Positions 48,348-62,264 of a DNA stretch of 64,000 nt are shown piece by piece (position 1 is the first letter of the stretch; each line of letters starts with the position of its first letter). The position numbers and the translations under genes were made by a program. This stretch comes from Bacteroidota bacterium (lineage in GTDB: Bacteria; Bacteroidota; Bacteroidia; Flavobacteriales; Flavobacteriaceae), in NCBI GenBank assembly GCA_947447375.1, contig CANFJB010000007.1:48280-112279 (forward strand), read 5' to 3'. The notes below the pieces were generated by a model. The model worked only from the letters and a program-made list of their open reading frames with translations. It was not told the DNA's origin and did not search any database.

Positions 48348-50261
48348 ATGAATACAATCGTCTCTCGCGTTGCTTACTTTTTAAAACAATATCCACCGTT
48401 TAATAATCTAACAATTGAAGAATTGTCGATTGTTGCTATGAGTATCAAAATTATTAATCTTGAAAAAAATAAAGATTTATTTCAAATTAATGATACTTTA
48501 CACGATAGCTTTTATATGGTTGATTCTGGAGTTGTGAATTTATTTGTGATTTCTGATTCTGAAGAAACATTATTAAATAAATGTGTTTCTGGTGACGTTT
48601 TCGGTTTGCGCCCTTTCTTTGCCAAAAATAATTACATGATGACCGCAAGAGCTCGTGAAGAATCCATAATATATGCTATTCCTATTGCGACTTTCAGACC
48701 CTTTGTAGCACAAAATTCAGAAGTATTGAATTTCCTATTGGAAAGTTTTGCTAACAATACCAGTAATCCCTCTGATATTGAAAATAAAGGAAAATTATTA
48801 TCTGACAATATTGCTTTTTCTTCTAAACCTACTGAAATTCAGTACTTTCAGACTTTGTCTTACAACAGGTCTCCATTAAAAATAACTCCAAATGCACTAA
48901 TTAAGGATGTTGCACAATTGATGACGGATAATTTAGTGGATAACGCCATAATTTCTGAATTGAATATACCTGTTGGAATTGTAACAGATACAGATATGAG
49001 GATTAAAGTAGCCTCAGGACGAGTCGATATCAATATGCCAATAAATAAAATTATGTCCTCACCTGTTATTACTGTTCCGGAAAACGTTTCATTAGCGGAA
49101 GCACAATTATTATTATTAAAAAATAACGTGAGTCATTTATGTGTAACTGTTGATGGATCAGACCAAACCGATATTAAAGGTGTAATTTCTGAGCATGATT
49201 TAATTGTTTCTCAAGCGAGTAATCCTGGTGTTTTTATTAAAGAAATTAAGCGCTCACATTCTGCAAATGAACTAAAAAATGTTCGTTCAAAAGTAACCGA
49301 CTTAATTTACACTTCATTATCGAAAAACATACCTTTAGCTCATATTACCAATATTGCCAATGAAATAAATATTGCAATCATAAAAAGAGCTGTAGAATTA
49401 GCAATTTTAGATATTGGCTCCCCTCCTGCACGTTTTGCATGGCTGAGCATCGGAAGTCAAGGTCGTAAAGAGCAATTGTTATTTACCGATCAAGACAGTA
49501 TTTTAGTTTTTGAAGATGTTGCTGTAGAAAAATACCGTGATGTTAAGAATTATTTTTTACGATTAGCTAAGAAAACGGTATCAAATCTTGAAATTGTAGG
49601 ATACCCTACTTGTCCAAATGGTCATACTGCAAGTAATATGATTTGGTGTAAATCGATGACGGAATGGATGAAGCAATACAGTAATTGGATGAAAATTCCT
49701 GGTGAGATCAACAATGATATTAGCAGTATTTTCTTTGATTATGAAATAGCTTTTGGAGAACAAAAGATTGAAGATGCGATTACCGATATCATATTTGTAA
49801 ATACAAGAAAAAACAAATTATTCTTTGATTATTTAGGTAATGATGCCTTAAGAAAACCACCGGCTTTAAGTTTTTTCAAGAAAATAAATGTTGAAGAAAC
49901 CGGTCCAAACAAAGGAAAATTTGATATTAAAAATAGAGCTTTACTTCCGTTGATTGATGGTGCGAGGTTATTTATCATCAGTTATAATATTCGTGGTATA
50001 AATAACACTTACATGAGATTTAAACATCTTGCAATGGTTGATTTGAAAAATTCTGAAATCTATTTGAATTGTGCTGAAGCCTATCAATCACTGACTAAAA
50101 TAAAAACTACTGAAGGTTTAAGATACGATAACTCAGGACAATTCATCAACTTAGAAGATTTAAATAAAGTAGATAAAGAGAATTTGAAGAATGCTTTAAA
50201 TACCATTAAAGATTTAGAAGAACTAATTAAAGATAGTTTTCAACTTACACAGTTTTCATAA
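48348..50261 (+). CDS. cNMP-binding + CBS pair + DUF294 nucleotidyltransferase-like protein
   Basis: N-terminal cNMP fold (GDVFG); CBS pair (GIVTDTD, GVISEHD); GSQGRKEQLLFTDQDS (GS..DxD) NTase motif; FDIK...L.P. Confidence 0.9.
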   Translation: MNTIVSRVAYFLKQYPPFNNLTIEELSIVAMSIKIINLEKNKDLFQINDTLHDSFYMVDSGVVNLFVISDSEETLLNKCVSGDVFGLRPFFAKNNYMMTARAREESIIYAIPIATFRPFVAQNSEVLNFLLESFANNTSNPSDIENKGKLLSDNIAFSSKPTEIQYFQTLSYNRSPLKITPNALIKDVAQLMTDNLVDNAIISELNIPVGIVTDTDMRIKVASGRVDINMPINKIMSSPVITVPENVSLAEAQLLLLKNNVSHLCVTVDGSDQTDIKGVISEHDLIVSQASNPGVFIKEIKRSHSANELKNVRSKVTDLIYTSLSKNIPLAHITNIANEINIAIIKRAVELAILDIGSPPARFAWLSIGSQGRKEQLLFTDQDSILVFEDVAVEKYRDVKNYFLRLAKKTVSNLEIVGYPTCPNGHTASNMIWCKSMTEWMKQYSNWMKIPGEINNDISSIFFDYEIAFGEQKIEDAITDIIFVNTRKNKLFFDYLGNDALRKPPALSFFKKINVEETGPNKGKFDIKNRALLPLIDGARLFIISYNIRGINNTYMRFKHLAMVDLKNSEIYLNCAEAYQSLTKIKTTEGLRYDNSGQFINLEDLNKVDKENLKNALNTIKDLEELIKDSFQLTQFS

Positions 50262-50263
50262 TT

Positions 50264-50860
50264 ATGATAGATTGGATTAAAAATATTAACAAAGATTATC
50301 CTGAATTTTGGAGGAATTATCTTACAAAATTTGAAACTCGACCACAAAGATACGTTGCCTTAAGTATTGATTATTCTGGAGCTAACCCTCAAAAAGACGT
50401 GATTTTAGCTTTTGGTGCGGTTGGAATTGAAAATGATAAAATAAATATTGGTGATTTCTTTGAAGTTGTTTTACTACAATACGTTTATTTACATGAAAAT
50501 GGTCTTTCAAATGAAGCTATTATTGAAAGTAAACAACCAAAATTAGGAGAACGAGAAGCAATACAAGCTTTTATCGAGTTTTTAGGAAATGCTGTTTTGG
50601 TCGGTCATAAAATTAATTTATCGATTGATTTAATTAATGCTGCTCTTGAAAAAATGAATTGTGGCCGATTAAAAAACGATGCGATTGATATTGAAATAAT
50701 GTTTAAAAAATACAAAGACACTTCTGATAAATCCTACTCTATAGACGATTTATGTAATGAATTTAAGTTGCCTATAATTGAAGAAACCGCAATTCCAGAT
50801 TTATCATACACCGTTTCTCTTTTGTTTTTGAAACTAAAAAGCAGATTAGGTTTAAAATAA
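50264..50860 (+). CDS. DEDDh 3'-5' exonuclease-fold protein with degenerate catalytic motifs
   Basis: Fold cues ILAFGAV, AVLVGH and ..CGRLKN.AID remain, but ExoI reads LSIDYSG and ExoII reads HKINLSI. Confidence 0.7.
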   Translation: MIDWIKNINKDYPEFWRNYLTKFETRPQRYVALSIDYSGANPQKDVILAFGAVGIENDKINIGDFFEVVLLQYVYLHENGLSNEAIIESKQPKLGEREAIQAFIEFLGNAVLVGHKINLSIDLINAALEKMNCGRLKNDAIDIEIMFKKYKDTSDKSYSIDDLCNEFKLPIIEETAIPDLSYTVSLLFLKLKSRLGLK

Positions 50861-50889
50861 AAAAGGCTGCCAATTTAGGCAGCCTTTTT
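50860..50889. terminator. Bidirectional terminator
   Basis: AAAAAGGCTGCC-AATTTA-GGCAGCCTTTTT between convergent genes. Confidence 0.9.
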
Positions 50890-50903
50890 ATAATTATAAG
50901 AAA

Positions 50904-52811
50904 TTACAATTTTCCATTTTTAATTTCATCAACTATTTCAGGATTTAACAAAGTAGTCGTATCACCGAAATTTGAGAAATCACCTTCAGCAATTTTACGC
51001 AATATTCTTCGCATAATTTTACCAGATCTTGTTTTTGGTAATCCTGATACAAATTGGATTTTATCCAATTTAGCGATTGGTCCAATTTGGTCTGAAATTA
51101 ACTGATTGATTTCAATTTTTAGATTTTCATGGTTTCTGTTTTCACCAATCTCTTTTAAAATCACATAACCATATAATGCGTTCCCTTTGATATCATGCGG
51201 GAAACCTACAATTGCACTTTCCGCAACTGCTGGATGTTCATTAATTGCATCTTCTATTGGTGCAGTTCCTAGATTATGACCAGAAACAATAATGACATCA
51301 TCTACTCGACCTGTAATTCTGTAGTAGCCAGTTTCATCTCTCAATGCTCCATCTCCGGTGAAATATTTGCCTGGAAAGGCGGTAAAATAGGTTTCTTTAT
51401 AGCGTTTATGATCCCCCCAAATAGTTCTTGCTATTCCTGGCCAAGGAAATTTGATACATAAATTACCAGTCACCTGATTTCCTTCAATTTCATTTCGCTT
51501 TTCATTCATCAAAACAGGTTGAACTCCTGGTAAGGGTAAAGAAGCGTAGGTTGGTTTGGTTGGTGTAACAAATGCCAAAGGTGATATCATAATTCCTCCT
51601 GTTTCTGTTTGCCACCAAGTATCAACCACAGGACATCGCTTCCCTCCTACGTGTGCATTATACCAATGCCAGGCCTCTTCATTAATAGGTTCTCCAACAG
51701 ATCCAATTACTTTTAATGATTTTAATGGAAAACGTTGAACATAATCCAAACTCTCTTTAGCTAAAGCTCTAATAGCAGTTGGTGCCGTATAAAATTGCGT
51801 TACTTTATGTTTTTCGATAACTTCCCAAAAACGACTAAAATCCGGATATGAAGGAACTCCTTCAAAAATAACTGTAGTAGCTCCATTCAATAATGGACCA
51901 TATAATATGTAGGAATGTCCTGTTATCCAACCAATATCAGCGGTACACCAAAACACATCGTTTTCAACGTAATTGAATACATTTTTAAAAGTATAAGCGG
52001 AATAAACCATGTAACCAGCTGTTGTATGTACCATTCCTTTAGGTTTTCCAGTTGATCCTGAAGTATAAAGTATGAATAATGGATCTTCAGCATCCATAAT
52101 TTCAGCTACATTATTATCTGAGGCATCGTCTAAAAGCGGTTGAAGCCATTGGTCACGACCCGTTTTCATAGAAATTTCAGAATTGGTTCGTTTTGCAACT
52201 AATACTTTTTCTACACATGGACAATTTTCCAGGGCATCATCAATAATTCCTTTTAAATCAATAGTTTTGTTTCCTCGATAACCTCCGTCAGATGTAATTA
52301 CCATTTTACATTCACTATCGTTAATTCTCGCCGCTACTGCAGATGCTGAAAATCCTGCAAAAACAACCGAATGGATTGCTCCAATTCTAGCACAGGCTAA
52401 TGTGGCTATTGCCAATTCAGGAATCATTGGTAAATAAATACAAACACGATCACCTTTTCCAATTCCTTGGTCTCTTAGAACATTGGAAAATTTTGAAACT
52501 CGCTCATGCAATTCATTGTAAGAAATATGTTGTGCTTCTTCAGTTGGATCGTTTGGTTCAAAAATAATGGCTGTTTTTTCCCCTTTCCTTGCTAAATGGC
52601 GGTCAATACAGTTTTTTACAATATTCACTTTGGCACCAACAAACCATTCAATTTTTGCTTCAGCCATATCAAATTCAATTACCTTTTCCCATTCTTGGTA
52701 CCAAGTGAAATTCTCAGAGGCTACTTTACCCCAAAACTTCCTCGGTTCACGAATAGATTTATTATAGTGCTTGAAATATTGCTCTAAATTGTCTATTTTA
52801 TAGTAACTCAT
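50904..52811 (-). CDS. acs: Acetate--CoA ligase
   Basis: YTSGSTGKPKG, DTWWQTETGG, GRVDDV, LPKTRSGKIMRRILR (acetylatable Lys); start ATG 52811 (MSYYKI). Confidence 0.97.
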   Translation of the reverse strand: MSYYKIDNLEQYFKHYNKSIREPRKFWGKVASENFTWYQEWEKVIEFDMAEAKIEWFVGAKVNIVKNCIDRHLARKGEKTAIIFEPNDPTEEAQHISYNELHERVSKFSNVLRDQGIGKGDRVCIYLPMIPELAIATLACARIGAIHSVVFAGFSASAVAARINDSECKMVITSDGGYRGNKTIDLKGIIDDALENCPCVEKVLVAKRTNSEISMKTGRDQWLQPLLDDASDNNVAEIMDAEDPLFILYTSGSTGKPKGMVHTTAGYMVYSAYTFKNVFNYVENDVFWCTADIGWITGHSYILYGPLLNGATTVIFEGVPSYPDFSRFWEVIEKHKVTQFYTAPTAIRALAKESLDYVQRFPLKSLKVIGSVGEPINEEAWHWYNAHVGGKRCPVVDTWWQTETGGIMISPLAFVTPTKPTYASLPLPGVQPVLMNEKRNEIEGNQVTGNLCIKFPWPGIARTIWGDHKRYKETYFTAFPGKYFTGDGALRDETGYYRITGRVDDVIIVSGHNLGTAPIEDAINEHPAVAESAIVGFPHDIKGNALYGYVILKEIGENRNHENLKIEINQLISDQIGPIAKLDKIQFVSGLPKTRSGKIMRRILRKIAEGDFSNFGDTTTLLNPEIVDEIKNGKL

Positions 52812-52978
52812 ATTATTTGTATTTAACCTATTTATTACTATCAAAGATAAAAAATAGTTGCGCATAATAAATGCTATTTTTTATCTTTTGTGAATTTGTA
52901 ATTAATAATATTAATAAAAATCATTTTCATTACAATTTGTTACCTTTTTTTATTTAATTTGTAATTAAATAATTCGCA

Positions 52979-53581
52979 ATGCAATTCAATCCACAAGATT
53001 TAGAACAAACCGCTATTTACAAATTATTGACTGGAATCGTTATTCCTAGACCAATAGGTTGGATTTCAACAATTAGCGAAGACGGAATCAATAATTTAGC
53101 TCCATTTTCCTACTTTAATGCGGTTGGTGATGATCCGCCTCACGTAATGTTTTCAACAGTTCATTCCAATAATTCGAATAAAGACACGCTAAATAATGTT
53201 TTAGCAACCAAGCAATTTGTTGTAAATATGGTTACAGAAGATTTAGTGGAACAAATGAATAGGACTTCACAAGCTATTCCTGCAAACGAAAGTGAATTTG
53301 AATTGGCAGGCCTCACTCCTATTGCGTCTTCATTGGTTTTACCACCACGTGTGAAAGAATGTAAAATCACTATGGAATGCGAAATGGTTCATCATTATCA
53401 ATTGGAAAATTCAAAAACGGGCGGAGCAACAATTGTAATTGGAAAAATTGTTTTGTTTCATATTGATGAAAGTGTTTTATTAGACAATTATAAAATTAAT
53501 TTAGAAACCTACAAACCAATTGCGCGTTTGGCTGGTTCTAATTACTCAAAATTAGGAGATATTTTTTCAATAAAAAGATAA
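52979..53581 (+). CDS. Flavin reductase-like FMN-binding protein
   Basis: VIPRPIGWIST, NLAPFSYFN, KDTLNN...FVVN, PIARLAGSNY. Confidence 0.85.
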   Translation: MQFNPQDLEQTAIYKLLTGIVIPRPIGWISTISEDGINNLAPFSYFNAVGDDPPHVMFSTVHSNNSNKDTLNNVLATKQFVVNMVTEDLVEQMNRTSQAIPANESEFELAGLTPIASSLVLPPRVKECKITMECEMVHHYQLENSKTGGATIVIGKIVLFHIDESVLLDNYKINLETYKPIARLAGSNYSKLGDIFSIKR

Positions 53582-53582
53582 C

Positions 53583-55889
53583 ATGAAAATAACTGTAATT
53601 GGTGGCGGTCCTGGTGGTTTGTATTTTTCAATTTTATTGAAGAAGGCAATTCCAAATTGTCAAATTGATATTTATGAACGCAATAAAGCAGATGATAGTT
53701 TTGGATTTGGTGTTGTTTTTTCAGATGAAACTTTAAGTGAATTCTTAACCCGAGATCCTAAATCATATGAATTAATCCGAAGTAAATTTGCCTATTGGGA
53801 CGATTTAGATGTTGCTCGTGATGGTGAAATTGTACGAATTTCAGGTAATGGATTTTGTGGTTGTTCAAGAAAAACATTATTGCAATTACTACAACAAAGA
53901 TGCATCGAAGAAGGTGTAAATCTTCACTTTGAACAAAATGTGGATGACCTAAAAAAATACAGTGATTCAGATGTTATTGTGGCTTGTGACGGAATTGGTA
54001 GTCAAATTAGAACGAAATTTTCTAAGGAATTTGGAACTAAAATTGAATTAAAGAAAAATCGATTTGTTTGGCTAGGTTCAACAAAACCCTTGGATGCGTT
54101 TACCTATTTCTTCAGAAATACTCCTTACGGAATGATTGTGGCTCACTCCTACCAATATGAAAAAGGAATGAGTACTTGGATTTTCGAATGCTCGGATGCA
54201 ACATGGAAAAATGCCGGTTTTGAAGTAGAAAATGAACAAGATACAATTGAAAAAATATCAAATTTATTTAAAGAGGAATTGGACGGACATCCTTTAATTT
54301 CAAATAAATCACACTGGCGTAAATTTCCTGCAATTACTAACGAAAAATGGCATTTCGATACTATTGTTTTACTTGGCGATGCTAAAGCTACAGCTCATTA
54401 TTCTATTGGTTCAGGAACAAAATTAGCCATGGAATGCGCAATTGGTTTAGCGGATGCTTTAATTGAATTTCCGAACGATATTCCACAAGCATTTGATAAA
54501 TATGAAAAATCAAGACGAAATAGAGTCGAAATGATTCAATATGCTGCTAATGTTTCTTTGGATTGGTTTGAAAATATGGATCGAAATGCGAAACATGATT
54601 TTCAGCAATTTGCATTTGGATGCATGACGCGATCAAAAAAAGTAACTTTTGAGAATTTAGCGATTCGTGACGCTTCCTTCCCAGAAAAAGTTTTAGCAGA
54701 ATTCAATTTAAAACAAGGAATTTCTGACTTAAAAACTCCCGCTGCTTTTACACCATTCTATTTAAGAAAAATGAAATTAGAAAACAGAATTGTGATGTCT
54801 CCAATGGGACAATATTCTGCTGAAAACGGGTTGGTCAACAATTGGCATTTAGTTCATTACGGAGCCAGAGCTACCGGCGGTGTAGGTTTAATATTAACCG
54901 AAATGACAGCTATTTCTGAAACAGGACGTATTACTTTAGGTTGTGCTGGTATTTGGAATGAAAATCAAGTAGTTGAGTGGAAAAAAATAACTGATTTTAT
55001 TCATCAAAATAGTAAATCTAAAATCGGAATTCAATTAGGACATTCTGGCCGAAAAGGGGCGCTAAATCTTCCGTCTGTTGGTAACAATATTCCTTTAGAA
55101 AAAGACAATTGGGATTTGATTTCAGCTTCTCCAATCGCCTTTTCATCTAAAAATGCTGTTCCAAAAGAAATGACAATTGATTATATGAATCAAATTGTTT
55201 CTGAATTTACCCAAGCAACAATAAACGCTGATAATGCCGGTTTTGATATGATTGAATTACAGGCGCATCATGGGTTTTTATTGGCTTCTTTCCTTTCTCC
55301 ACTTACCAATATTCGTAAAGATGAATTTGGCGGAAGCATAGAAAACAGATTAAAATTTCCTATAAAAGTTTTTACAGAAATGAGAAAGGCTTTCAATCCA
55401 GAAAAACCAATGTCGGTAAGAATTTCTGCTATTGATTGGGCTGAAAACGGTATTTCCGAAGAGGATGTTTTAGAAATAGCAAAAGCTTTTCAAGATGCTG
55501 GTGCTGATATAATCAACGTATCAACAGGAAATACTGTCGAAAACCAGAAGCCATTAATTGGTAGAATGTGGCAAACCCCCTATTCTGATGCGATTAGAAA
55601 TACTGTTGGTATTCCAACAATAACAACAGGATTCATTCAAGATATTGATCAAATAAATACTATTTTATTAAACGGTCGATCCGATTTAGTAGCGCTTGGA
55701 AGTCCTTTATTATTGGATGCTAATTTTGTTAGAAATGCAGAAGCCTATGAACAATATAAAACGACTTCAATTCCAAATCAATATTTGCCAGGAATTTCTC
55801 ATTTATATCCTTACAAAGCAGCCGAAAGAAATGCCCTGGAGAGCATGAAAAAAGCATTAAAACCTGAAAGTCATAGTCCTAAAAAATAG
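53583..55889 (+). CDS. Bifunctional anthraniloyl-CoA / salicylyl-CoA monooxygenase-oxidoreductase (AbmA/SdgC-like)
   Basis: N-terminal GGGPGGL, FGFGVVFSD, GDAKATAHYSIGSGTKLAME flavin monooxygenase; C-terminal OYE-like barrel RIVMSPM.QYSA, FLSPLTN.R.DEFGGS.ENR. Confidence 0.9.
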   Translation: MKITVIGGGPGGLYFSILLKKAIPNCQIDIYERNKADDSFGFGVVFSDETLSEFLTRDPKSYELIRSKFAYWDDLDVARDGEIVRISGNGFCGCSRKTLLQLLQQRCIEEGVNLHFEQNVDDLKKYSDSDVIVACDGIGSQIRTKFSKEFGTKIELKKNRFVWLGSTKPLDAFTYFFRNTPYGMIVAHSYQYEKGMSTWIFECSDATWKNAGFEVENEQDTIEKISNLFKEELDGHPLISNKSHWRKFPAITNEKWHFDTIVLLGDAKATAHYSIGSGTKLAMECAIGLADALIEFPNDIPQAFDKYEKSRRNRVEMIQYAANVSLDWFENMDRNAKHDFQQFAFGCMTRSKKVTFENLAIRDASFPEKVLAEFNLKQGISDLKTPAAFTPFYLRKMKLENRIVMSPMGQYSAENGLVNNWHLVHYGARATGGVGLILTEMTAISETGRITLGCAGIWNENQVVEWKKITDFIHQNSKSKIGIQLGHSGRKGALNLPSVGNNIPLEKDNWDLISASPIAFSSKNAVPKEMTIDYMNQIVSEFTQATINADNAGFDMIELQAHHGFLLASFLSPLTNIRKDEFGGSIENRLKFPIKVFTEMRKAFNPEKPMSVRISAIDWAENGISEEDVLEIAKAFQDAGADIINVSTGNTVENQKPLIGRMWQTPYSDAIRNTVGIPTITTGFIQDIDQINTILLNGRSDLVALGSPLLLDANFVRNAEAYEQYKTTSIPNQYLPGISHLYPYKAAERNALESMKKALKPESHSPKK

Positions 55890-55916: not shown

Positions 55917-57518
55917 ATGAAGAAGTACCAAGACCAATTTGCCCACATTCATTTGCCTGACAAACAATTTCAGCCAGATTACATTTACAATAATCCGAAT
56001 TTCGAATTGGAACCTAGTTTAAATTGCGTTGAACGTCTTTTAGACAATCATATTAAGGAAGGTAGAGGGAATTCTGGGGCAATACGAACTTTTAATGAAA
56101 CTTGGACTTATCAAGATTTATATGATAAATCAAATCAAATTGCTCACGTATTAGTAGATGAATTAGGATTAGTTTCAGGAAACCGCGTTTTGATTCGTTC
56201 TGCAAACAATCCAATGTTTGTAGCTTGTTGGTTTGCAATTCTAAAAGCCGGTGGAATTGTCGTCGCAACCATGCCTTTACTTCGAGAAAAAGAATTGGAA
56301 ACCATAGTTGATTGTGCTGAAATATCCCATGCTTTTTGCGATTTACGATTGGAAGAAGCGTTATCATTAGTAAAATCGCCTTATTTAAAATCGGTTTGTA
56401 CATTTGATGGATCGAATGAAAAAAAATCGGAATTAGAAGTTTTAATGGCTTCAAAACCAACCGAATTTTCAAACTTTCCCACATTTGCGGAAGCGGTTTC
56501 GATTATAGGATTCACATCAGGAACAACGGGTTTGCCAAAAATGACCGCCCATTATAACAAAGATATTTTATTGATTTGTGAAGCCTTTCCAAAATATGCT
56601 TTACAACCAAAAGCAGACGATATTTTCACAGGAAGTCCACCATTAGGATTTACATTCGGCTTGGGTGGCTTGGTTTTATTTCCATTTTATTATGGAGCTT
56701 CCACCTTTTTAATTGAAAAACCATCCCCAGATATATTACTTGAAGCGATTCAAGATTTTAAAATCACTATTTGCTTTACAGCGCCAACGGCTTGGAGAAT
56801 GATTACTCAAAAAGTTACTGATTTCGATATTTCCAGCTTACGCAAATGTGTTTCAGCTGGTGAGAATCTTCCTTTAAAAGTTTGGGAAGATTGGCACAAA
56901 GCCACGGGACTTAAGATTATTGATGGTATTGGATCAACCGAATTACTTCATATTTTTATATCTTCGAATGAAGAAAATATGAAGCCTGGAGCCACTGGAT
57001 TAGCTATTTACGGTTACGAAGCTAAAATTGTAGACGATAATGGAAATGAAGTTGGCAATAATGAAATTGGTAAATTAGCTGTCCGAGGAATTACAGGTTG
57101 CAAGTACTTGAATCGACTTGAAAAACAAGAGGAATACGTACAAAACAAATGGAATTTAACCGGTGATATTTTCAAAAAAGATGAAGATGGCTATTTCTGG
57201 TTCATTGCCCGTGGCGACGATATGATTATTTCTTCGGGGTATAATATTGCGGCAATTGAAGTAGAAAGCGTACTTTTGACTCACGATGAAATTCTAGAAT
57301 GTGCCGTTGTAGGTATTCCTGATGAAAATCGTGGAATGCTAGTTTGTGCAAATATAGTATTGAAAAATCCAGCTTCCGCAAATGAAGATTTGGCGAAATC
57401 AATACAAGATTGGTTCAAACAAGTAGCTGCTCCATACAAATATCCAAGGATTATTAAATTTCATGACGTTTTACCAAAAACAGAAACAGGAAAGATACAA
57501 CGATTTAAATTGAAATAA
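55917..57518 (+). CDS. Aromatic acid--CoA ligase (2-aminobenzoate-CoA ligase AbmG-like)
   Basis: FTSGTTGLPK, SPPLGFTFGLGG, SAGE.LP, DGIGSTELLHIF, LPKTETGKIQRF. Confidence 0.88.
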   Translation: MKKYQDQFAHIHLPDKQFQPDYIYNNPNFELEPSLNCVERLLDNHIKEGRGNSGAIRTFNETWTYQDLYDKSNQIAHVLVDELGLVSGNRVLIRSANNPMFVACWFAILKAGGIVVATMPLLREKELETIVDCAEISHAFCDLRLEEALSLVKSPYLKSVCTFDGSNEKKSELEVLMASKPTEFSNFPTFAEAVSIIGFTSGTTGLPKMTAHYNKDILLICEAFPKYALQPKADDIFTGSPPLGFTFGLGGLVLFPFYYGASTFLIEKPSPDILLEAIQDFKITICFTAPTAWRMITQKVTDFDISSLRKCVSAGENLPLKVWEDWHKATGLKIIDGIGSTELLHIFISSNEENMKPGATGLAIYGYEAKIVDDNGNEVGNNEIGKLAVRGITGCKYLNRLEKQEEYVQNKWNLTGDIFKKDEDGYFWFIARGDDMIISSGYNIAAIEVESVLLTHDEILECAVVGIPDENRGMLVCANIVLKNPASANEDLAKSIQDWFKQVAAPYKYPRIIKFHDVLPKTETGKIQRFKLK

Positions 57519-57519
57519 T

Positions 57520-57945
57520 ATGAATCAACCATTTATTAAAGAAGAACAAATTCGATTCCAACATGTAGATTACGCTGGTATCGTTTTTTATCCCCGTTAT
57601 TTCGAAATGCTAAATTGCATTGTTGAAGATTTTTATGATGAAGCACTAGGTTTGCCTTTTAATAAAATGCATGAAACTGGAGGAATTCCAACGGTTGATT
57701 TAAAAGTTAAATTTATGAAACCTGCACGTTTGGGTGAAGTACTAACCAAGTATTTTTGGATAAAAAATATCGGTGGTTCTTCACTTCTATGTGGATTCAA
57801 ATTTGAAAATAGTCAAAAAGCGATTTGCCTTGAAGGCGAAGTTACACTGGTGAATGTTGCTTTTGCTGAAAATAGAAGTTCTATCAAAGCGGCACCCTTT
57901 TCTGATTTAATTAAAAGTAAATTGCAAAAATATTTAATCCATTAA
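57520..57945 (+). CDS. Acyl-CoA thioesterase (4-HBA-CoA/YbgC-like)
   Basis: RFQHVDYAGIVFYPRYF motif. Confidence 0.88.
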   Translation: MNQPFIKEEQIRFQHVDYAGIVFYPRYFEMLNCIVEDFYDEALGLPFNKMHETGGIPTVDLKVKFMKPARLGEVLTKYFWIKNIGGSSLLCGFKFENSQKAICLEGEVTLVNVAFAENRSSIKAAPFSDLIKSKLQKYLIH

Positions 57946-57948
57946 ATC

Positions 57949-58929
57949 ATGACTTTCAATAAATTCAAAGCTGCAGCAGTTCAAACTTCCCCAGTTTTTC
58001 TAAATGCTGACAAAACGATTGATAAAGCTATTACTTTTATAAAGGAAGCAGCTGAAAATGGTGCGCAATTGATTGCTTTTCCAGAGGTGTTTGTATCTGG
58101 TTATCCTTATTGGAATTGGATTATGACACCCGTTCAAGGAAGTAAATGGTATGAAAAATTATACAAAAGTGCTATAACTGCTGATGGTTCGGAAGTAAAA
58201 CGAATTTGTAATGCTGCCAAAGAATTCAATATACATATAGTTATTGGAATCAATGAAAAAGGAACAAGTTTTGGTGAGATTTACAACACCAATTTGATTA
58301 TTGATAATAATGGAAATCTTATTGGTAAACATAGAAAATTAGTACCCACTTGGGCTGAAAAACTCACTTGGACTTCTGGTGATGGCTCTTCATTAAAAGT
58401 ATATAAAACAGAAATTGGTCCAATTGGAACTTTAGCATGTGGAGAAAACACCAATACTTTAGCAAGATTTGCATTGCTCGCTCAAGGCGAATTAATTCAC
58501 GTTGCTAATTATATTTCGTTGCCAGTTGCACCTCCCGATTATGATATGGCAGAAGCAATAAAAATTCGTGCAGCCGCGCATTCATTTGAAGGAAAACTAT
58601 TTACAATTGTTTCATGCTCGACTATTTCTGAAGAAATTAAAGATGCACTTAGAGAAGATGTTCCGAATGTAGATGAATTATTAACACGTAAAAACTCTGC
58701 TTTTTCAGGATTTATAGGTCCTAATGGTGCAGCAATTGGAACGCCATTAATCGATGAAGAAGGAATTGTTTATGCTGATATCGATTTGGAAAAATGTATT
58801 CAGCCGAAACAAATGCACGATATTTTAGGACATTACAACCGATTTGACATTTTTGATTTGCGAGTAAATACAGCGCCAACAAGAAATATCACTTTTATAG
58901 ACAATCACGACCAGTTTAATAAACAATAA
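57949..58929 (+). CDS. Nitrilase-superfamily C-N hydrolase
   Basis: E-K-C triad: FPEVF, HRKLVPT..E, LACGEN; C-terminal DILGHYNRFD. Confidence 0.92.
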   Translation: MTFNKFKAAAVQTSPVFLNADKTIDKAITFIKEAAENGAQLIAFPEVFVSGYPYWNWIMTPVQGSKWYEKLYKSAITADGSEVKRICNAAKEFNIHIVIGINEKGTSFGEIYNTNLIIDNNGNLIGKHRKLVPTWAEKLTWTSGDGSSLKVYKTEIGPIGTLACGENTNTLARFALLAQGELIHVANYISLPVAPPDYDMAEAIKIRAAAHSFEGKLFTIVSCSTISEEIKDALREDVPNVDELLTRKNSAFSGFIGPNGAAIGTPLIDEEGIVYADIDLEKCIQPKQMHDILGHYNRFDIFDLRVNTAPTRNITFIDNHDQFNKQ

Positions 58930-58932
58930 ACT

Positions 58933-60042
58933 ATGGAAGCAAAACATTCAGACGACCAATTAGGAAGAGCTAGAGTTCAAGACACACCTGAATTAGAAGC
59001 TTATTATAATGAATTAGAACAATTAGGTGCTGGTGCTTTATGGACCGTTGCTAATGATATTGAACCTTGGGAACCTCGCTCCTCCTCTGTTCCGATGTTA
59101 TGGAAATATGACGATTTACGCGAATTGGTTTTGAAATCATCGGAATTGGTTACTCCAGAACAAGCAGGACGTCGAGTGGTTTATTTAGTAAATGACAATC
59201 GTAAAGATGTCAGCGCTGCTGTGGGTTGGTTATACACTGGAATCCAAGTGACACGTCCTGGAGAAAGTACATCTGCTCACAAACACAAAGCTTCTGCGCT
59301 CCGTTTTATTATGGAAGGCGAAGGTGGTTACACGGTAGTTGATGGAAACAAAATCACTTTCGAAGTCAATGATTTCGTTATTACTCCTAATTCTACTTGG
59401 CACGAACATGGCGTTGATGAAAATGGGAAAACGTGTATTTGGCAAGATGGTTTGGATATTCCGTTAGTAAACGCTTTGGAAGCAAATGATTATGCCGTTT
59501 ATGATGGTAAACAACCGTTGACTAAACCGGTAAATAATTCCCCAATTACTTTTGGTTGTGCTGGCTTAATTCCTGCAGATCAAACTTGGGATAAACCTTA
59601 TTCGCCATTATTTAAATATTCATGGAAAAACGTATATCCAGCTTTAATTGAAACTTCAATAGTGAATGAAGTTAATCCTTTTGACGGAATTTTGATGCAC
59701 TATACCAATCCGTTAACTGGTGGACACGTGATGCAAACAATGGGAGCAGCAATGCAATTATTACCTGCAGGATTCAAAGGAAAAGCGCACAAACATACCG
59801 GTTCATTTGTATACCAATGTGCTAAAGGTCGTGGTTATTCAATTATTAATGGAAAACGTTTCGATTGGGCAGCAAGAGATATTTTCTGTGTTCCAAGTTG
59901 GGCTTGGCATGAACATGTGAATCTTTCTGAAACCGAAGATGCTTGTCTTTTTTCATTTAACGATTTACCGGTCATTGAAAGTTTAGGGTTGTTTCAATCT
60001 CGAGAATTGGAAGAAAATGGTGGGTTTCAAGAAGTTCAATAA
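58933..60042 (+). CDS. Gentisate 1,2-dioxygenase-family bicupin ring-cleavage dioxygenase
   Basis: RRVVYLVN, AHKHKASALRFIMEG..GYTVVDG, ITPNSTWHEH, WQDGLDIPLV, second cupin HKHTGS..VPSWAWHEH. Confidence 0.88.
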   Translation: MEAKHSDDQLGRARVQDTPELEAYYNELEQLGAGALWTVANDIEPWEPRSSSVPMLWKYDDLRELVLKSSELVTPEQAGRRVVYLVNDNRKDVSAAVGWLYTGIQVTRPGESTSAHKHKASALRFIMEGEGGYTVVDGNKITFEVNDFVITPNSTWHEHGVDENGKTCIWQDGLDIPLVNALEANDYAVYDGKQPLTKPVNNSPITFGCAGLIPADQTWDKPYSPLFKYSWKNVYPALIETSIVNEVNPFDGILMHYTNPLTGGHVMQTMGAAMQLLPAGFKGKAHKHTGSFVYQCAKGRGYSIINGKRFDWAARDIFCVPSWAWHEHVNLSETEDACLFSFNDLPVIESLGLFQSRELEENGGFQEVQ

Positions 60043-60117: not shown

Positions 60118-61026
60118 ATGAAATTACTTACTTACAAAACACAAATATCAGAATCCAGATTGGGATTTATTCATAACAATCAGGTGGTTGATATGGAAGA
60201 TTTCGGGGATATTTCTAATTTTCCTTTACCATATTCTATGTTAGAATTAATAGATATGGGAATTGAAGTTATTGAAGAAATCAATTCTTTAGTTGAAGAT
60301 GCTAATCCTGCAGAACTGGCCGAAATCAGTTATTCATTTGACGAAATTACGATTCTTGCTCCTATCGAAAAACCAAGAAAAAACATTATCGGTATTGGGT
60401 TAAATTATACCGAACACGTTGCCGAAAGCGCTAGAACATTAGATACCACAGGGAAATTACCTCAAAAACCTATTATATTTTCAAAACCTCCAACAACAGT
60501 TACAGGTACCAATACCGAAATTATAAAAAATACCAAACTTACCGAGCAATTGGATTGGGAAGTAGAATTGGCTGTGATCATTGGTAAAAAAGGAAAATAT
60601 GTACCTAAAGAAACTGCGATGGATTGTATTTTTGGATACACCGTTATTAATGATATTTCGGCACGTGATTGCCGTCGTGAAGGACAATGGATTGTTTCGA
60701 AAGGTCAAGATACATTTGCTCCAATGGGTCCGTATTTAGTTACAAAAGACGAAATTGAAAATCCACATAATTTAAATTTGTCTTTAACTGTTAATGGCAT
60801 TGAAAAACAAAACTCCAACACCCAATTTCTATTATTCAATATCAATGATTTGATTAATGATTTGAGTACGGTTTTCACTTTAGAACCTGGAGATATTATT
60901 GCCACAGGAACACCTTCTGGAGTTGGTGCTGGAAGAAGTCCACAGGAATGGTTGTATGATGGAGACGTTGTAGAATGCACCGTTGAAGGAATTGGAACGA
61001 TAAGAAATACAATAAAAGAAATATAA
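60118..61026 (+). CDS. Fumarylacetoacetate hydrolase family protein
   Basis: IIGIGLNY.EH, IFSKP, DWEVELAV, NDISARD, KGQDTFAPMG, PGDIIATGTP.GVG. Confidence 0.93.
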   Translation: MKLLTYKTQISESRLGFIHNNQVVDMEDFGDISNFPLPYSMLELIDMGIEVIEEINSLVEDANPAELAEISYSFDEITILAPIEKPRKNIIGIGLNYTEHVAESARTLDTTGKLPQKPIIFSKPPTTVTGTNTEIIKNTKLTEQLDWEVELAVIIGKKGKYVPKETAMDCIFGYTVINDISARDCRREGQWIVSKGQDTFAPMGPYLVTKDEIENPHNLNLSLTVNGIEKQNSNTQFLLFNINDLINDLSTVFTLEPGDIIATGTPSGVGAGRSPQEWLYDGDVVECTVEGIGTIRNTIKEI

Positions 61027-61514: not shown

Positions 61515-62264
61515 ATGAAAAAATACAGAATAGGACAAATAGTTCCGTCTTCCAATGTGACGATGGAAACTGAAATACCAGCTATTTTTCGATCTCGTGA
61601 AACGATTTTACCCGAGCGATTTACTTTTCACAGCAGTAGAATGCGAATGAAAAAAGTAACTAAAGAAGAACTCGAAGCCATGGATGCCATGAGTTTAAAA
61701 TGTGCACAAGAACTTTCTGATGCTCATGTTGACGTAATGGGTTATGCTTGTTTGGTAGCCATTATGAGTATGGGTCGCGGTTATCACTGTGTGTCGGAAG
61801 TGAATTTACATCAGGAAACTATCGCCAACGACTTCCCTACTCCAATTGTAACTTCTGCTGGTGCGCTAATTAATGGATTGAAAGTTTTAGGTGCCAAAAA
61901 AGTGGCTGTAATTACACCATATATGCGACCGTTAACCGATATGGTAGTTGATTACATCGAACACCAAGGTTTTGAAGTAGTCGATTCCATTGCATTGGAA
62001 ATACCGGACAATTTAGAAGTTGCCGCACAAGATCCAATGAATTTACTGGAAATTTATAAGCGTTTGAACCTGGAAGGAGTTGATGTATTAGTAGCTTCTG
62101 CCTGTGTGCAAATGCCGTCTTTAGAAGCAATTGATTTAATCCAGAAAGAAATCGGAATTCCGGTAACTTCTGCAGCAGTTTGTACTACCTATGAAATGAT
62201 GAAAAAACTCGGAATCGAAGCCAAATCAGCTATTGGTGGTGAGTTATTGAGTGGAAAATATTAA
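61515..62264 (+). CDS. maiA: Maleate cis-trans isomerase (Asp/Glu racemase family, NicE/MaiA-like)
   Basis: IGQIVPSSN.TMETE, ERFTFHSSRMRM, GYACLVA and SACVQM (two catalytic Cys), closely matching the NicE/MaiA pattern. Confidence 0.93.
   Translation: MKKYRIGQIVPSSNVTMETEIPAIFRSRETILPERFTFHSSRMRMKKVTKEELEAMDAMSLKCAQELSDAHVDVMGYACLVAIMSMGRGYHCVSEVNLHQETIANDFPTPIVTSAGALINGLKVLGAKKVAVITPYMRPLTDMVVDYIEHQGFEVVDSIALEIPDNLEVAAQDPMNLLEIYKRLNLEGVDVLVASACVQMPSLEAIDLIQKEIGIPVTSAAVCTTYEMMKKLGIEAKSAIGGELLSGKY

What the first reader, a model, noticed from the sequence alone, without database searches (positions are those of the whole stretch)
55251..55290. Reductase half of the AbmA-like enzyme has lost the old-yellow-enzyme catalytic residues
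Seen: the C-terminal flavin barrel reads IELQAHHGFLL (cag at 55260, ttt at 55275) where OYE/YqjM-type reductases have E-L-H-x-x-H-G-Y-L-L. Known: the two His bind the substrate carbonyl and the Tyr is the proton donor. Inference: with H->Q and Y->F the dienone-CoA intermediate cannot be reduced and should re-aromatise to the 5-hydroxy aryl-CoA. That is the substrate needed by the downstream thioesterase and ring-cleavage dioxygenase. This is independent sequence support for a rewired pathway.
Basis: partly seen in the sequence, partly recalled or inferred. Interest (0 to 1): 0.62.

Follow-up and report, generated by a model that had tools for sequence, protein, structure and literature searches.

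The report
Aryl-CoA hydroxylase with disabled reductase half
A two-domain flavoenzyme in this Flavobacterium aromatic-acid operon has lost key catalytic residues of its built-in reductase domain; the same loss arose independently in at least five or six bacterial lineages, each time together with a switch from a beta-oxidation-like route to a ring-cleavage (gentisate-type) route.

Summary
ORF 53583-55889 (768 aa) fuses an FAD monooxygenase to an old-yellow-enzyme (OYE) domain. It reads IELQAHHGFLL where OYEs read IELHxAHGYLL: Q560 (CAG 55260) and F565 (TTT 55275). Only the first His is lost; H563 stays.

In 142 relatives with HxxHGY, those three residues are invariant. They mostly sit beside enoyl-CoA hydratase, SDR and RidA genes, as in the anthranilate-CoA (AbmA) route. 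Enzymes that lost the Tyr, and nearly always the first His, arose separately in Flavobacterium, two freshwater actinobacterial clades, Streptomyces, a Rhodospirillaceae-like lineage and Novosphingobium. In 15 of 15 such loci with long flanks there is a nitrilase–gentisate dioxygenase–FAH(–maleate isomerase) module and no beta-oxidation genes.

A third site changes convergently (Q650 to E or N), and in one clade it changed before the Tyr and His did. The OYE domain keeps its flavin-binding residues and is still under purifying selection (dN/dS about 0.14), so it is remodelled, not decaying.

Best reading: a hydroxylase-only aryl-CoA 5-hydroxylase, the known SdgC-type logic. Biochemistry is untested, and the substrate (anthranilate or salicylate) is unresolved.

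The parts
52979..53581 (+). Flavin reductase-like gene (200 aa, PF01613). Its stop codon lies 1 nt before the hydroxylase start codon.
   Evidence: Pfam E=5e-25. Present next to the hydroxylase in all Flavobacterium loci and in most other variant lineages.
53583..55889 (+). Two-domain aryl-CoA 5-hydroxylase of the AbmA/SdgC family (768 aa).
   Evidence: NCBIfam NF006101 'bifunctional salicylyl-CoA 5-hydroxylase/oxidoreductase' scores 975.7 bits, below the cutoff of 1078. Pfam FAD_binding_3 plus Oxidored_FMN.
53583..54692 (+). N-terminal FAD monooxygenase domain (aa 1-370), apparently intact.
   Evidence: Matches VioD-type and FAD_binding_3 models. Only 2 of the 88 N-domain sites that are at least 95% conserved in HxxHGY enzymes are changed here.
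54744..55787 (+). C-terminal OYE-like (Oxidored_FMN) domain (aa 388-735) with a remodelled active site.
   Evidence: PDB OYE hits at E about 1e-72. 11 of 93 conserved OYE-domain sites are changed. dN/dS is about 0.14, against 0.09 for the N-domain.
55251..55283 (+). Motif IELQAHHGFLL. Q560 (CAG 55260-62) replaces the first catalytic His. H563 (55269-71) is kept. F565 (TTT 55275-77) replaces the proton-donor Tyr. H562 replaces a conserved Ala.
55530..55532 (+). N650 (AAT). This site is Q in 98% of HxxHGY enzymes, E in five other variant lineages and N in Flavobacterium. It lies in the loop after strand beta-6, one column before the residue that aligns with E. coli FadH His253 (Met-inclusive numbering).
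54807..54809 (+). G409 (GGA), equivalent to TsOYE Cys25. The site is D/C/A in HxxHGY enzymes and G in the Flavobacterium and acI-A variants.
55701..55703 (+). S707 (AGT) at the position aligned to Arg319 of TsOYE, which I take to bind the FMN phosphate (role recalled). The change is private to this window; 114 close relatives have R and 5 have K.
55917..57518 (+). Aryl-CoA ligase (533 aa).
   Evidence: AMP-binding Pfam domains; benzoate-CoA ligase family, 319 bits. 45% identical by tblastn to the pAL1 AMP-binding gene adjacent to the hydroxylase; I take this gene to be ARUE_113p00220, the ligase assayed on anthranilate in PMC3534580, from its position, not from an explicit tag mapping.
57520..57945 (+). 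Hotdog-fold (4HBT) acyl-CoA thioesterase (141 aa).
   Evidence: Pfam 4HBT_2 and 4HBT. Conserved in the Flavobacterium, Streptomyces, Rhodospirillaceae-like and Novosphingobium variant loci.
57949..58929 (+). Nitrilase-branch C-N hydrolase (326 aa). A constant member of the ring-cleavage module; its role is unresolved.
   Evidence: Pfam CN_hydrolase. PDB nitrilases and cyanide dihydratases at E=1e-65 to 1e-52. Co-occurs with GDO and FAH in every variant lineage and at the R. pomeroyi 3BU7 GDO locus.
58933..60042 (+). Gentisate 1,2-dioxygenase-type bicupin (369 aa).
   Evidence: TIGR02272 scores 309 bits, below the cutoff of 442. PDB 3BU7 GDO at E=4e-159.
60118..61026 (+). FAH-family hydrolase (302 aa), the candidate maleylpyruvate-type hydrolase.
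   Evidence: Pfam FAA_hydrolase E=3.5e-68.
61515..62264 (+). Maleate cis-trans isomerase-like Asp/Glu-racemase-family protein (249 aa).
   Evidence: Pfam Amdase. Present in 14 of 15 variant loci.

Best explanation
The 768-aa protein belongs to the 2-aminobenzoyl-CoA monooxygenase/reductase (AbmA) / salicylyl-CoA 5-hydroxylase (SdgC) family. Its N-terminal FAD monooxygenase domain is intact. Its C-terminal OYE domain no longer acts as an ene-reductase.

Proposed mechanism (inferred): the ligase makes the 2-substituted benzoyl-CoA. The FAD domain hydroxylates C5. The resulting dienone tautomer is not hydrogenated and re-aromatises to the 5-hydroxy-aryl-CoA. The hotdog thioesterase releases the free acid (gentisate or 5-hydroxyanthranilate). 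The GDO-type dioxygenase opens the ring. FAH, the C-N hydrolase and maleate isomerase then carry the product to pyruvate and fumarate.

The OYE active site has been remodelled at three convergent positions: H560 to Q, Y565 to F and Q650 to N (plus G409). The flavin-binding residues and strong purifying selection are retained. The domain therefore still does something, whether structural, flavin handling or catalysis of re-aromatisation.

Shown here: the substitutions, their convergence, their association with gene neighbourhood, and the selection pattern. Inferred: loss of reductase activity, product identity and substrate.
For: - Motif and coordinates.
- Family assignment.
- H560, H563 and Y565 are invariant in 142 of 142 HxxHGY loci, and Q650 is present in 98%.
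- The physiologically supported anthranilate-CoA cluster of Arthrobacter Rue61a pAL1 (PMC3534580) is HHY/Q650.
- Neighbourhood association: variants have the GDO module in 15 of 15 loci and beta-oxidation genes in 0 of 15. HHY/Q650 enzymes have beta-oxidation genes in 45 of 61 loci and the GDO module alone in 0 of 61. Fisher tests give 1e-7 and 1e-12, not corrected for phylogeny.
- Independent origins: each variant lineage is closest to an HHY sequence, even when only the N-domain is compared. The lineages are Flavobacterium, acI-type Actinobacteria A and B, Streptomyces, a Rhodospirillaceae-like lineage and Novosphingobium humi.
- Within-clade contrast: HHY relatives at about 75% identity carry ECH, thiolase, SDR, RidA and an ADP-forming CoA ligase downstream, where the variants carry PaaX.
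- Changed conserved sites concentrate in the OYE domain: 11 vs 2, 12 vs 2 and 8 vs 1.
- The OYE/N-domain divergence ratio is 1.15-2.05 in variants against 0.91 in HHY enzymes.
- AbmA is reported to give 5-hydroxyanthraniloyl-CoA when NADH is limiting (Langkau 1990, as cited in PMC3534580). The aromatic product is therefore the default when reduction fails.
Against: - There is no biochemical measurement for any variant enzyme.
- Gln can still hydrogen-bond a carbonyl, and Tyr-to-Phe mutants of some OYEs (PETN reductase, morphinone reductase; from memory) stay active. Sequence alone therefore does not prove inactivity.
- The OYE domain is still strongly constrained (dN/dS about 0.14) and keeps Q484, H563 and R613.
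- An HHY/E650 enzyme already sits in a GDO-type context. Single His or Tyr losses occur in beta-oxidation-type clusters.
- The GDO module also flanks intact enzymes in some actinobacteria.
- Independent events number about six, so the Fisher p-values overstate the evidence.
Confidence: 0.7

Rival explanations
1. The OYE domain has been repurposed rather than disabled. With a Glu/Asn at 650, the retained His563 and bound flavin, it actively catalyses a non-reductive step. Candidates are tautomerisation (re-aromatisation) of the dienone-CoA, or flavin or electron handling together with the co-transcribed flavin reductase.
For: Q650 changes to E in five separate lineages and to N in Flavobacterium, which is directional rather than random. 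Purifying selection on the domain persists. Flavin-binding residues are conserved. A flavin reductase gene is coupled to the hydroxylase in most variant lineages.
Against: Rearomatisation of such dienones is expected to be spontaneous. There is no precedent I could find. The domain does evolve faster than in HHY enzymes, and the window itself has lost the Arg aligned to TsOYE Arg319, the putative FMN-phosphate Arg (S707). Constraint could equally be structural, for example dimerisation or CoA binding.
Confidence: 0.2
2. The enzyme is still a full monooxygenase/reductase. Gln560 and His563 bind the carbonyl, and water or another residue supplies the proton. The adjacent gentisate-type genes belong to a separate pathway.
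For: OYE1 naturally uses a His/Asn pair, and some Tyr-to-Phe OYE mutants remain active (from memory). The domain is under purifying selection. The GDO module can lie beside intact enzymes and exists without any hydroxylase at the R. pomeroyi GDO locus.
Against: None of the 15 long-flank variant loci has any ECH, thiolase or RidA+SDR gene to consume a reduced alicyclic product. The genes are packed into one operon with gaps of 1-75 nt. The same three sites change convergently in about six lineages, only where the beta-oxidation genes are absent.
Confidence: 0.07
3. The substitutions are neutral drift in a domain that became dispensable for an unrelated reason. They carry no information about the pathway.
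For: In acI-A the order appears to be Q650E, then Y565F, then H560 to Q/L/M. This looks like decay after an earlier switch.
Against: The domain is not decaying: dN/dS is about 0.14, there are no frameshifts in more than 120 Flavobacterium and 120 Streptomyces clusters, and flavin-binding residues are kept. The association with neighbourhood is strong, so the substitutions remain a reliable marker even if they are secondary.
Confidence: 0.03

Closest known systems
2-Aminobenzoyl-CoA monooxygenase/reductase (AbmA, EC 1.14.13.40; Azoarcus evansii. A homologue on Arthrobacter Rue61a pAL1 lies in a physiologically supported anthranilate-CoA cluster.)
   Same: Same two-domain architecture (FAD monooxygenase plus OYE). 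Same partnership with an aryl-CoA ligase (45% identical to the pAL1 AMP-binding gene next to the hydroxylase). About 45-53% identity to HxxHGY-type members.
   Different: Lacks the invariant H560, Y565 and Q650 of that type. Has no ECH, SDR, RidA or thiolase neighbours. Is embedded instead in a thioesterase plus ring-cleavage operon.
Salicylyl-CoA 5-hydroxylase SdgC (EC 1.14.13.209; Streptomyces sp. WA46, Ishiyama et al. 2004, cited in PMC13215587)
   Same: Same family name in NCBIfam. Same logic of CoA activation, 5-hydroxylation without reduction, then gentisate 1,2-dioxygenase. A large Streptomyces clade linked to GDO carries the analogous signature ELQ[YF]GHG[HQN]L plus E650.
   Different: I could not retrieve the SdgC sequence, so direct comparison is untested. 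The window scores below the NF006101 cutoff. The operon additionally contains a nitrilase-type hydrolase, FAH, maleate isomerase and a flavin reductase. The substrate may be anthranilate rather than salicylate.
YqjM/TsOYE-type ('thermophilic-like') old yellow enzymes
   Same: Best solved-structure relatives of the C-terminal domain (E about 1e-72). Q100, H175, R225 and Y27 equivalents are kept.
   Different: The His172 equivalent is Gln, the Tyr177 equivalent is Phe and the Cys25 equivalent is Gly. In this window the Arg319 equivalent is Ser.
Last steps of the nicotinate pathway (maleamate amidase NicF plus maleate isomerase NicE). Recalled analogy only.
   Same: A C-N hydrolase is paired with a maleate cis-trans isomerase downstream of a ring-cleaving dioxygenase.
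   Different: NicF belongs to the isochorismatase family, whereas this hydrolase is of the nitrilase branch. No evidence here shows that maleamate is formed.

Membership tests
AbmA/SdgC two-domain aryl-CoA hydroxylase family (NCBIfam NF006101) | N-terminal FAD_binding_3 monooxygenase domain fused to a C-terminal Oxidored_FMN (OYE) domain | tested here: met
   Pfam PF01494 and PF00724. The NF006101 alignment covers aa 1-745 of 768.
AbmA/SdgC two-domain aryl-CoA hydroxylase family (NCBIfam NF006101) | Score at or above the curated NF006101 cutoff (1078 bits) | tested here: not met
   975.7 bits. It is by far the best family hit but below the equivalog cutoff.
AbmA/SdgC two-domain aryl-CoA hydroxylase family (NCBIfam NF006101) | Genomic linkage to an aryl-CoA ligase | tested here: met
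   The ligase starts 27 nt downstream. Linkage is conserved across loci.
AbmA proper (monooxygenase AND reductase, EC 1.14.13.40) | Intact OYE catalytic H-x-x-H-G-Y, invariant in 142 of 142 beta-oxidation/HHY-type members | tested here: not met
   Q560 and F565; only H563 is kept.
AbmA proper (monooxygenase AND reductase, EC 1.14.13.40) | Gln at position 650 (98% of HHY members) | tested here: not met
   N650.
AbmA proper (monooxygenase AND reductase, EC 1.14.13.40) | Neighbouring genes for the alicyclic product (enoyl-CoA hydratase, SDR, RidA, thiolase or ACAD) | tested here: not met
   None within the operon or within at least 8 kb on either side. The same holds in all Flavobacterium loci.
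AbmA proper (monooxygenase AND reductase, EC 1.14.13.40) | 2 NADH per substrate; product 2-amino-5-oxocyclohex-1-ene-carbonyl-CoA | not testable with these tools
   Needs an enzyme assay.
Salicylyl-CoA 5-hydroxylase (SdgC type, EC 1.14.13.209) | Operon link to CoA ligase and gentisate 1,2-dioxygenase, with no reduction step | tested here: met
   Ligase, thioesterase and GDO lie in one operon.
Salicylyl-CoA 5-hydroxylase (SdgC type, EC 1.14.13.209) | Sequence orthology to the characterised SdgC of Streptomyces sp. WA46 | not tested
   The SdgC sequence and the paper (PMC368302) were not retrievable. The GDO-linked Streptomyces clade is 42-43% identical to the window and of independent origin.
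Salicylyl-CoA 5-hydroxylase (SdgC type, EC 1.14.13.209) | Activity on salicylyl-CoA giving gentisyl-CoA | not testable with these tools
   Substrate could be salicylyl- or anthraniloyl-CoA. The evidence is mixed.
Catalytically competent OYE ene-reductase (YqjM/TsOYE class) | FMN-contact residues (TsOYE Q100, H175, R225) | tested here: met
   Q484, H563 and R613 are conserved.
Catalytically competent OYE ene-reductase (YqjM/TsOYE class) | His/His (or His/Asn) carbonyl-binding pair and Tyr proton donor | tested here: not met
   The pair is Gln/His and the Tyr is replaced by Phe.
Catalytically competent OYE ene-reductase (YqjM/TsOYE class) | FMN phosphate-binding Arg (position aligned to TsOYE R319; role recalled from YqjM Arg308) | tested here: not met
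   S707 in the window. R or K in 119 of 120 close relatives, so this loss is private to the window.

The most novel reading that the evidence does not exclude
The operon may encode an undescribed anthranilate route. Anthranilate would be converted to anthraniloyl-CoA and then to 5-hydroxyanthraniloyl-CoA by a hydroxylase whose OYE domain was converted, via Q650E/N, from reductase to a non-redox helper. The thioesterase would release 5-hydroxyanthranilate. GDO-type cleavage would give an amide product (maleamoylpyruvate). FAH and the nitrilase-type amidase would yield pyruvate, maleate and NH3, and maleate isomerase would give fumarate. This would explain why a C-N hydrolase and a maleate isomerase are constant members of the module, and why kynurenine-formamidase-like cyclase genes flank the hydroxylase in several variant lineages.
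Probability: 0.3. Interest if true: 0.75.

Novelty: new variant of a known kind. Interest (0 to 1): 0.6.

Why it matters
- **Annotation.** The result gives a simple three-residue signature (positions 560, 565 and 650) that separates hydroxylase-only enzymes from true monooxygenase/reductases. Both are currently named indiscriminately 'anthraniloyl-CoA monooxygenase' or 'bifunctional salicylyl-CoA 5-hydroxylase/oxidoreductase'. Pathway predictions for anthranilate, salicylate and tryptophan catabolism in Flavobacterium, Streptomyces, freshwater Actinobacteria and others are probably often wrong as a result.
- **Evolution.** It is a clean natural example of one domain of a fusion enzyme being switched off or retuned repeatedly. 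About six independent events each coincide with the replacement of a whole downstream pathway.
- **Experimental access.** Tractable organisms carry the variant cluster: the S. venezuelae chromosome CP029189 and a plasmid of Novosphingobium humi G5. The idea can be tested there.
- **Open question.** The nitrilase-type gene in a very widespread ring-cleavage module has no explained role.

Tried and rejected
- **Papers.** The key papers were not held: Ishiyama 2004 (PMC368302) and Schühle 2001 (PMC95408). Searches for CehH, SdgC, OYE plus 2-aminobenzoyl-CoA, and bacterial 5-hydroxyanthranilate catabolism found nothing that describes the residue losses.
- **Genome scan.** A 20-sequence alignment was too diverse for the scan. 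A 7-sequence alignment worked.
- **ORF-based neighbourhood calling.** My first attempt lost the hydroxylase in GC-rich loci, so I replaced it with tblastn-based marker calling.
- **Reference enzyme.** I looked for the characterised SdgC through plasmid hits. Those in Rhodococcus, Arthrobacter, Streptomyces and S. cattleya were all HxxHGY with RidA/PaaX clusters and no GDO. A search seeded with the Streptomyces variant found a large variant clade but no record named WA46.
- **Closest HHY/E650 relative.** P0121, the closest such relative of the Flavobacterium clade, lies on a 2.8-kb contig with no context.
- **Q650 and FadH.** I considered whether Q650 equals the proton-relay His of FadH. It aligns one column before it (W252/H253 in Met-inclusive numbering). 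This shows only that both lie in the same loop, not that they are equivalent.
- **H562.** I considered H562 (A to H in Flavobacterium) as a compensating His. I rejected this as unsupported, because other variant lineages have G or S there.
- **Structure prediction.** Not run, because model coordinates cannot be inspected with these tools.
Full report
**1. The observation**

ORF 53583-55889 (+) encodes a 768-aa protein.

Pfam finds FAD_binding_3 in the N-terminal half and Oxidored_FMN (old yellow enzyme family, E=1.6e-65) at aa 389-720. The best solved-structure relatives of the C-terminal half are YqjM/TsOYE-type ene-reductases (E about 1e-72). In the printed alignment 'mielqahhgfll' pairs with 'vielhmahgyll' of Thermus OYE. 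TsOYE His172 is therefore Gln, His175 is retained and Tyr177 is Phe.

**2. What the gene and its surroundings are**

The best NCBIfam model is NF006101, 'bifunctional salicylyl-CoA 5-hydroxylase/oxidoreductase'. It scores 975.7 bits over aa 1-745, below the curated cutoff of 1078. JGI calls close homologues 'anthraniloyl-CoA monooxygenase' and NCBI calls them 'salicylyl-CoA 5-hydroxylase' or 'FAD-dependent monooxygenase'. All close homologues are from Flavobacterium or Flavobacteriaceae.

The gene sits in a tightly packed plus-strand operon with gaps of 1, 27, 1, 3, 3, 75, 2 and 24 nt:
- flavin reductase (52979-53581)
- the hydroxylase (53583-55889)
- aryl-CoA ligase (55917-57518)
- hotdog thioesterase (57520-57945)
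- nitrilase-branch C-N hydrolase (57949-58929)
- gentisate 1,2-dioxygenase-type bicupin (58933-60042)
- FAH-family hydrolase (60118-61026)
- a small unassigned ORF (61029-61490)
- a maleate-isomerase-like Asp/Glu-racemase-family protein (61515-62264)

The dioxygenase matches the Ruegeria (Silicibacter) pomeroyi GDO structure 3BU7 at E=4e-159. The hydrolase matches true nitrilases and cyanide dihydratases.

**3. State of the motif across the family**

Among representatives clustered at 50% identity, HxxHGY is the majority state and variants are scattered. A genome scan returned 80 loci:
- All Flavobacterium/Flavobacteriaceae loci whose motif could be read (12 of 13; L012 was not readable) show ELQAHHGFLL.
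- 66 of 67 other loci read HxxHGY.

After adding metagenome loci and look-ups, 142 HxxHGY sequences could be aligned. H560, H563 and Y565 are invariant in all 142, and Q650 is present in 98%. In 120 close Flavobacterium clusters plus the window, Q560 and F565 are each present in 120 of 121, N650 in 120 of 120 and G409 in 121 of 121. The substitutions are therefore derived, fixed and not noise.

**4.

HxxHGY loci typically carry enoyl-CoA hydratase, short-chain dehydrogenase, RidA, acyl-CoA dehydrogenase or thiolase, a CoA ligase and ABC transporters. Two examples anchor this type:
- The R. pomeroyi copy lies next to tryptophan 2,3-dioxygenase.
- The copy on plasmid pAL1 of Arthrobacter Rue61a is HHY/Q650. 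For that plasmid, anthranilate-CoA ligase activity and CoA-ester intermediates were measured (PMC3534580).

All variant loci carry the C-N hydrolase/GDO/FAH(/maleate isomerase) module instead. In 82 loci with at least 6 kb on both sides:

| Enzyme type | Loci | GDO module | Beta-oxidation-type genes |
|---|---|---|---|
| Variant (565 changed, E/N650) | 15 | 15 (14 with maleate isomerase) | 0 |
| HHY/Q650 | 61 | 4 (all four also with beta-oxidation genes) | 45 |

The remaining 16 HHY/Q650 loci have neither set. Fisher tests give 1e-7 (beta-oxidation genes) and 1e-12 (GDO module). These are not corrected for shared ancestry, so the real weight rests on the number of independent lineages.

**5. 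Independent origins**

The variant lineages are:

| Lineage | Positions 560/563/565 | Position 650 |
|---|---|---|
| Flavobacterium | QHF | N |
| Freshwater actinobacterial clade A | HHF, QHF, LHF, MHF | E |
| Freshwater actinobacterial clade B | QH[S/T] | E |
| Streptomyces clade (120 clusters) | Q-H-[H/Q/N] | E |
| Rhodospirillaceae-like lineage | NHT | E |
| Novosphingobium humi G5 plasmid | QHF | E |

The Streptomyces clade includes S. venezuelae, S. virginiae and S. avidinii. Its loci L174 and L183 read ligase(-thioesterase)-hydroxylase-C-N hydrolase-GDO-FAH-maleate isomerase.

For all lineages tested except clade A, the nearest relative is an HxxHGY sequence rather than another variant lineage. 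This holds when only the N-terminal domain is compared, where rates are not elevated. For example, Streptomyces is 70.5% identical to its best HHY sequence and 62.8% to its best variant, and the window is 57.1% against 51.0%. The clade A sublineages are about equally close to each other and to HHY sequences, so I treat clade A as a single origin. N. humi was not included in these nearest-neighbour comparisons. NJ trees need 8-11 parsimony steps for the motif character over the whole family. The different replacement residues also argue for separate events.

Within the actinobacterial clade the contrast is especially clean. HHY relatives at about 75% identity have ECH, thiolase, SDR, RidA and an ADP-forming CoA ligase downstream of the shared cyclase and amine-oxidase genes. 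The variants have a PaaX regulator there instead.

**6. What else changed, and what did not**

Of the 181 sites that are at least 95% conserved in HHY enzymes, 88 lie in the N-domain and 93 in the OYE domain. The sites changed in each variant lineage are concentrated in the OYE domain:
- Flavobacterium: 2 N-domain, 11 OYE-domain
- Clade A: 2 and 12
- Clade B: 1 and 8

Sites changed in at least two lineages are 340, 490, 560, 562, 565, 591 and 650. Position 409, the TsOYE Cys25 equivalent, also changes convergently.

Q650 becomes E in five lineages and N in Flavobacterium. In my alignment with E. coli FadH, position 650 falls in the loop after strand beta-6, one column before His253 in Met-inclusive numbering. 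From memory, that His is the proton-relay His252 of the mature enzyme. This shows only that the two lie in the same loop, not that they are equivalent.

Flavin-contact residues are retained: Q484, H563, R613 and Y411. One exception is private to this window. The Arg aligned to TsOYE Arg319, which I take to bind the FMN phosphate, is Ser (S707); relatives have R in 114 clusters and K in 5.

The ratio of OYE-domain to N-domain divergence is 0.91 among HHY enzymes. It is 1.15 in Flavobacterium, 1.9 in clade A and 2.05 in clade B. Rough NG86 estimates give dN/dS of 0.14 for the OYE domain against 0.09 for the N-domain in Flavobacterium, and 0.07-0.10 for both domains in HHY groups (dS is near saturation). 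The domain is relaxed or retuned, but clearly still under purifying selection.

**7. Exceptions and order of events**

- P0273 and its relatives are HHY but E650, and are sister to clade A. The P0273 locus already has the GDO-type arrangement without the beta-oxidation genes. L066 is HHF/E650. Its relatives have Q, L or M at 560. The likely order is Q650E, then Y565F, then loss of H560. The His and Tyr losses would then follow the functional switch rather than cause it.
- P0131 (HHG/Q650) and P0154 (NHY/Q650) lie in ECH/SDR/RidA/ACAD clusters. Each has a luciferase-like oxidoreductase gene overlapping the hydroxylase. Single losses therefore occur in beta-oxidation contexts, perhaps with the reduction outsourced.
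- Some freshwater actinobacteria with intact HHY/Q650 enzymes carry both the beta-oxidation genes and the GDO module. The module also exists without any hydroxylase at the R. pomeroyi 3BU7 locus.

The clean correlate of the variant signature is absence of the beta-oxidation genes together with presence of the module. Presence of GDO alone is not sufficient.

**8. Mechanism**

From established OYE chemistry (recalled), the His pair polarises the enone carbonyl, reduced flavin delivers hydride to C-beta and the Tyr protonates C-alpha. AbmA is reported to yield 5-hydroxyanthraniloyl-CoA when NADH is limiting and the reduced 2-amino-5-oxocyclohex-1-ene-carbonyl-CoA otherwise (Langkau 1990, as cited in PMC3534580). 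An enzyme that cannot carry out the second step would therefore release the aromatic 5-hydroxy-aryl-CoA. That product is what a thioesterase plus a gentisate-type dioxygenase needs.

I assign about 0.7 to this hydroxylase-only reading. It includes the sub-possibility (about 0.2 overall) that the OYE site has acquired a new non-reductive role. The directional Q650E/N change, the retained flavin site, the persistent selection and the co-transcribed flavin reductase all suggest that possibility.

Sequence alone cannot prove inactivity. Gln can still hydrogen-bond, and some OYE Tyr-to-Phe mutants remain active (recalled).

**9. Substrate**

The substrate is unresolved.
- For salicylate: the SdgC precedent, and a dioxygenase about 60% identical to a crystallised gentisate dioxygenase.
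- For anthranilate:
  - The ligase is 45-49% identical to ligases of anthranilate-type clusters. These include the pAL1 AMP-binding gene next to the hydroxylase, which I take to be the ligase assayed in PMC3534580.
  - Kynurenine-formamidase-like cyclase genes lie next to the hydroxylase in three variant lineages.
  - A C-N hydrolase and a maleate isomerase are constant module members. An amide-bearing ring-cleavage product would explain both, by analogy with NicF and NicE (recalled).

**10. Comparison with known systems, and novelty**

The protein belongs to the AbmA/SdgC fusion family by architecture. It fails the tested defining features of AbmA proper: the catalytic HxxHGY, Q650 and beta-oxidation neighbours. 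It works like SdgC (CoA activation, 5-hydroxylation, then a gentisate-type dioxygenase). Orthology to SdgC itself could not be tested, because neither the sequence nor the paper was available.

No full-length structure of the family is in the PDB. I found no paper in the library that describes the residue losses or their link to pathway type.

I rate this a new variant of a known kind. The pathway logic is known. Three things appear to be undescribed: the recurrent remodelling of the reductase domain as a diagnostic signature, the constant nitrilase-type member of the module, and the possible anthranilate-to-5-hydroxyanthranilate route.

Noticed in passing
window 52979-53581; also L081, L082, L086, L176, L180: A PF01613 flavin-reductase gene ends 1 nt before the hydroxylase start. 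A homologue accompanies the GDO-type module in nearly every variant lineage, and in the actinobacterial HHY loci that also carry the module. It is absent from 65 of 66 other HHY genome loci. Its role is unexplained; it might supply reduced flavin now that the OYE domain is altered.
   Followed up: partly
window 57949-58929; L174, L176, L179, L183: A true nitrilase-branch C-N hydrolase is a constant member of a four-gene module (C-N hydrolase, GDO, FAH, maleate isomerase). The module occurs in Bacteroidota, Actinomycetota and Proteobacteria, including the locus of the crystallised R. pomeroyi GDO (PDB 3BU7), where no hydroxylase is nearby. A classical gentisate pathway needs no such enzyme.
   Followed up: partly
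window 61029-61490: A 153-aa ORF with a hydrophobic N-terminus and no family hit lies between the FAH and maleate-isomerase genes. In the blastp marker screen of the 80 genome loci it was detected only in the window.
   Followed up: partly
window 55701-55703 (S707): The window's own enzyme has Ser at the Arg aligned to TsOYE Arg319 (putative FMN phosphate-binding Arg). 114 close Flavobacterium clusters have R and 5 have K. This could be a further step of flavin-site decay in this strain, or a sequencing variant.
   Followed up: partly
L175 10001-13131; L177 9159-12277: In two beta-oxidation-type clusters the hydroxylase has lost only the Tyr (to Gly) or only the first His (to Asn). In both, a luciferase-like (Bac_luciferase) oxidoreductase gene overlaps the hydroxylase gene. 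The reduction step may have been handed to a separate enzyme.
   Followed up: no
L167 (Arthrobacter pAL1), L168 (R. erythropolis BG43), L171, L173: Soil actinobacterial HHY-type anthranilate clusters lack enoyl-CoA hydratase near the hydroxylase. L167 and L168 are annotated with RidA, an FAH-family hydrolase, a small cupin, a TesB-like thioesterase and PaaX regulators; marker hits in L171 and L173 show RidA, ligase and PaaX (plus FAH in L173). This points to a third, different downstream route for the reduced product.
   Followed up: no
L082, L084-L086, L181 (freshwater Actinobacteria): The hydroxylase is flanked by a PF04199 cyclase (kynurenine-formamidase-like) and two amine-oxidase-family genes, and most of these loci also carry an indolepyruvate-ferredoxin-oxidoreductase-like pair. 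This suggests a tryptophan or indole catabolic island.
   Followed up: no
(database names): PGAP names essentially every family member 'bifunctional salicylyl-CoA 5-hydroxylase/oxidoreductase', and JGI/KEGG names them 'anthraniloyl-CoA monooxygenase', regardless of the catalytic signature or neighbourhood. A 2026 paper counts 'sdgC' in 98% of Massilia genomes on this basis.
   Followed up: partly
window 48348-52865: Upstream and divergent from the operon lies an acetyl-CoA synthetase (50904-52865, minus strand). It is preceded by a 637-aa ORF (48348-50261) and a 198-aa ORF (50264-50860) that I did not run against any family library; from reading the translations they look like a cNMP-binding/CBS/nucleotidyltransferase protein and a small exonuclease-like protein. 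No transcriptional regulator of the aromatic operon is evident in the window, whereas PaaX or MarR genes accompany the cluster in other lineages.
   Followed up: no
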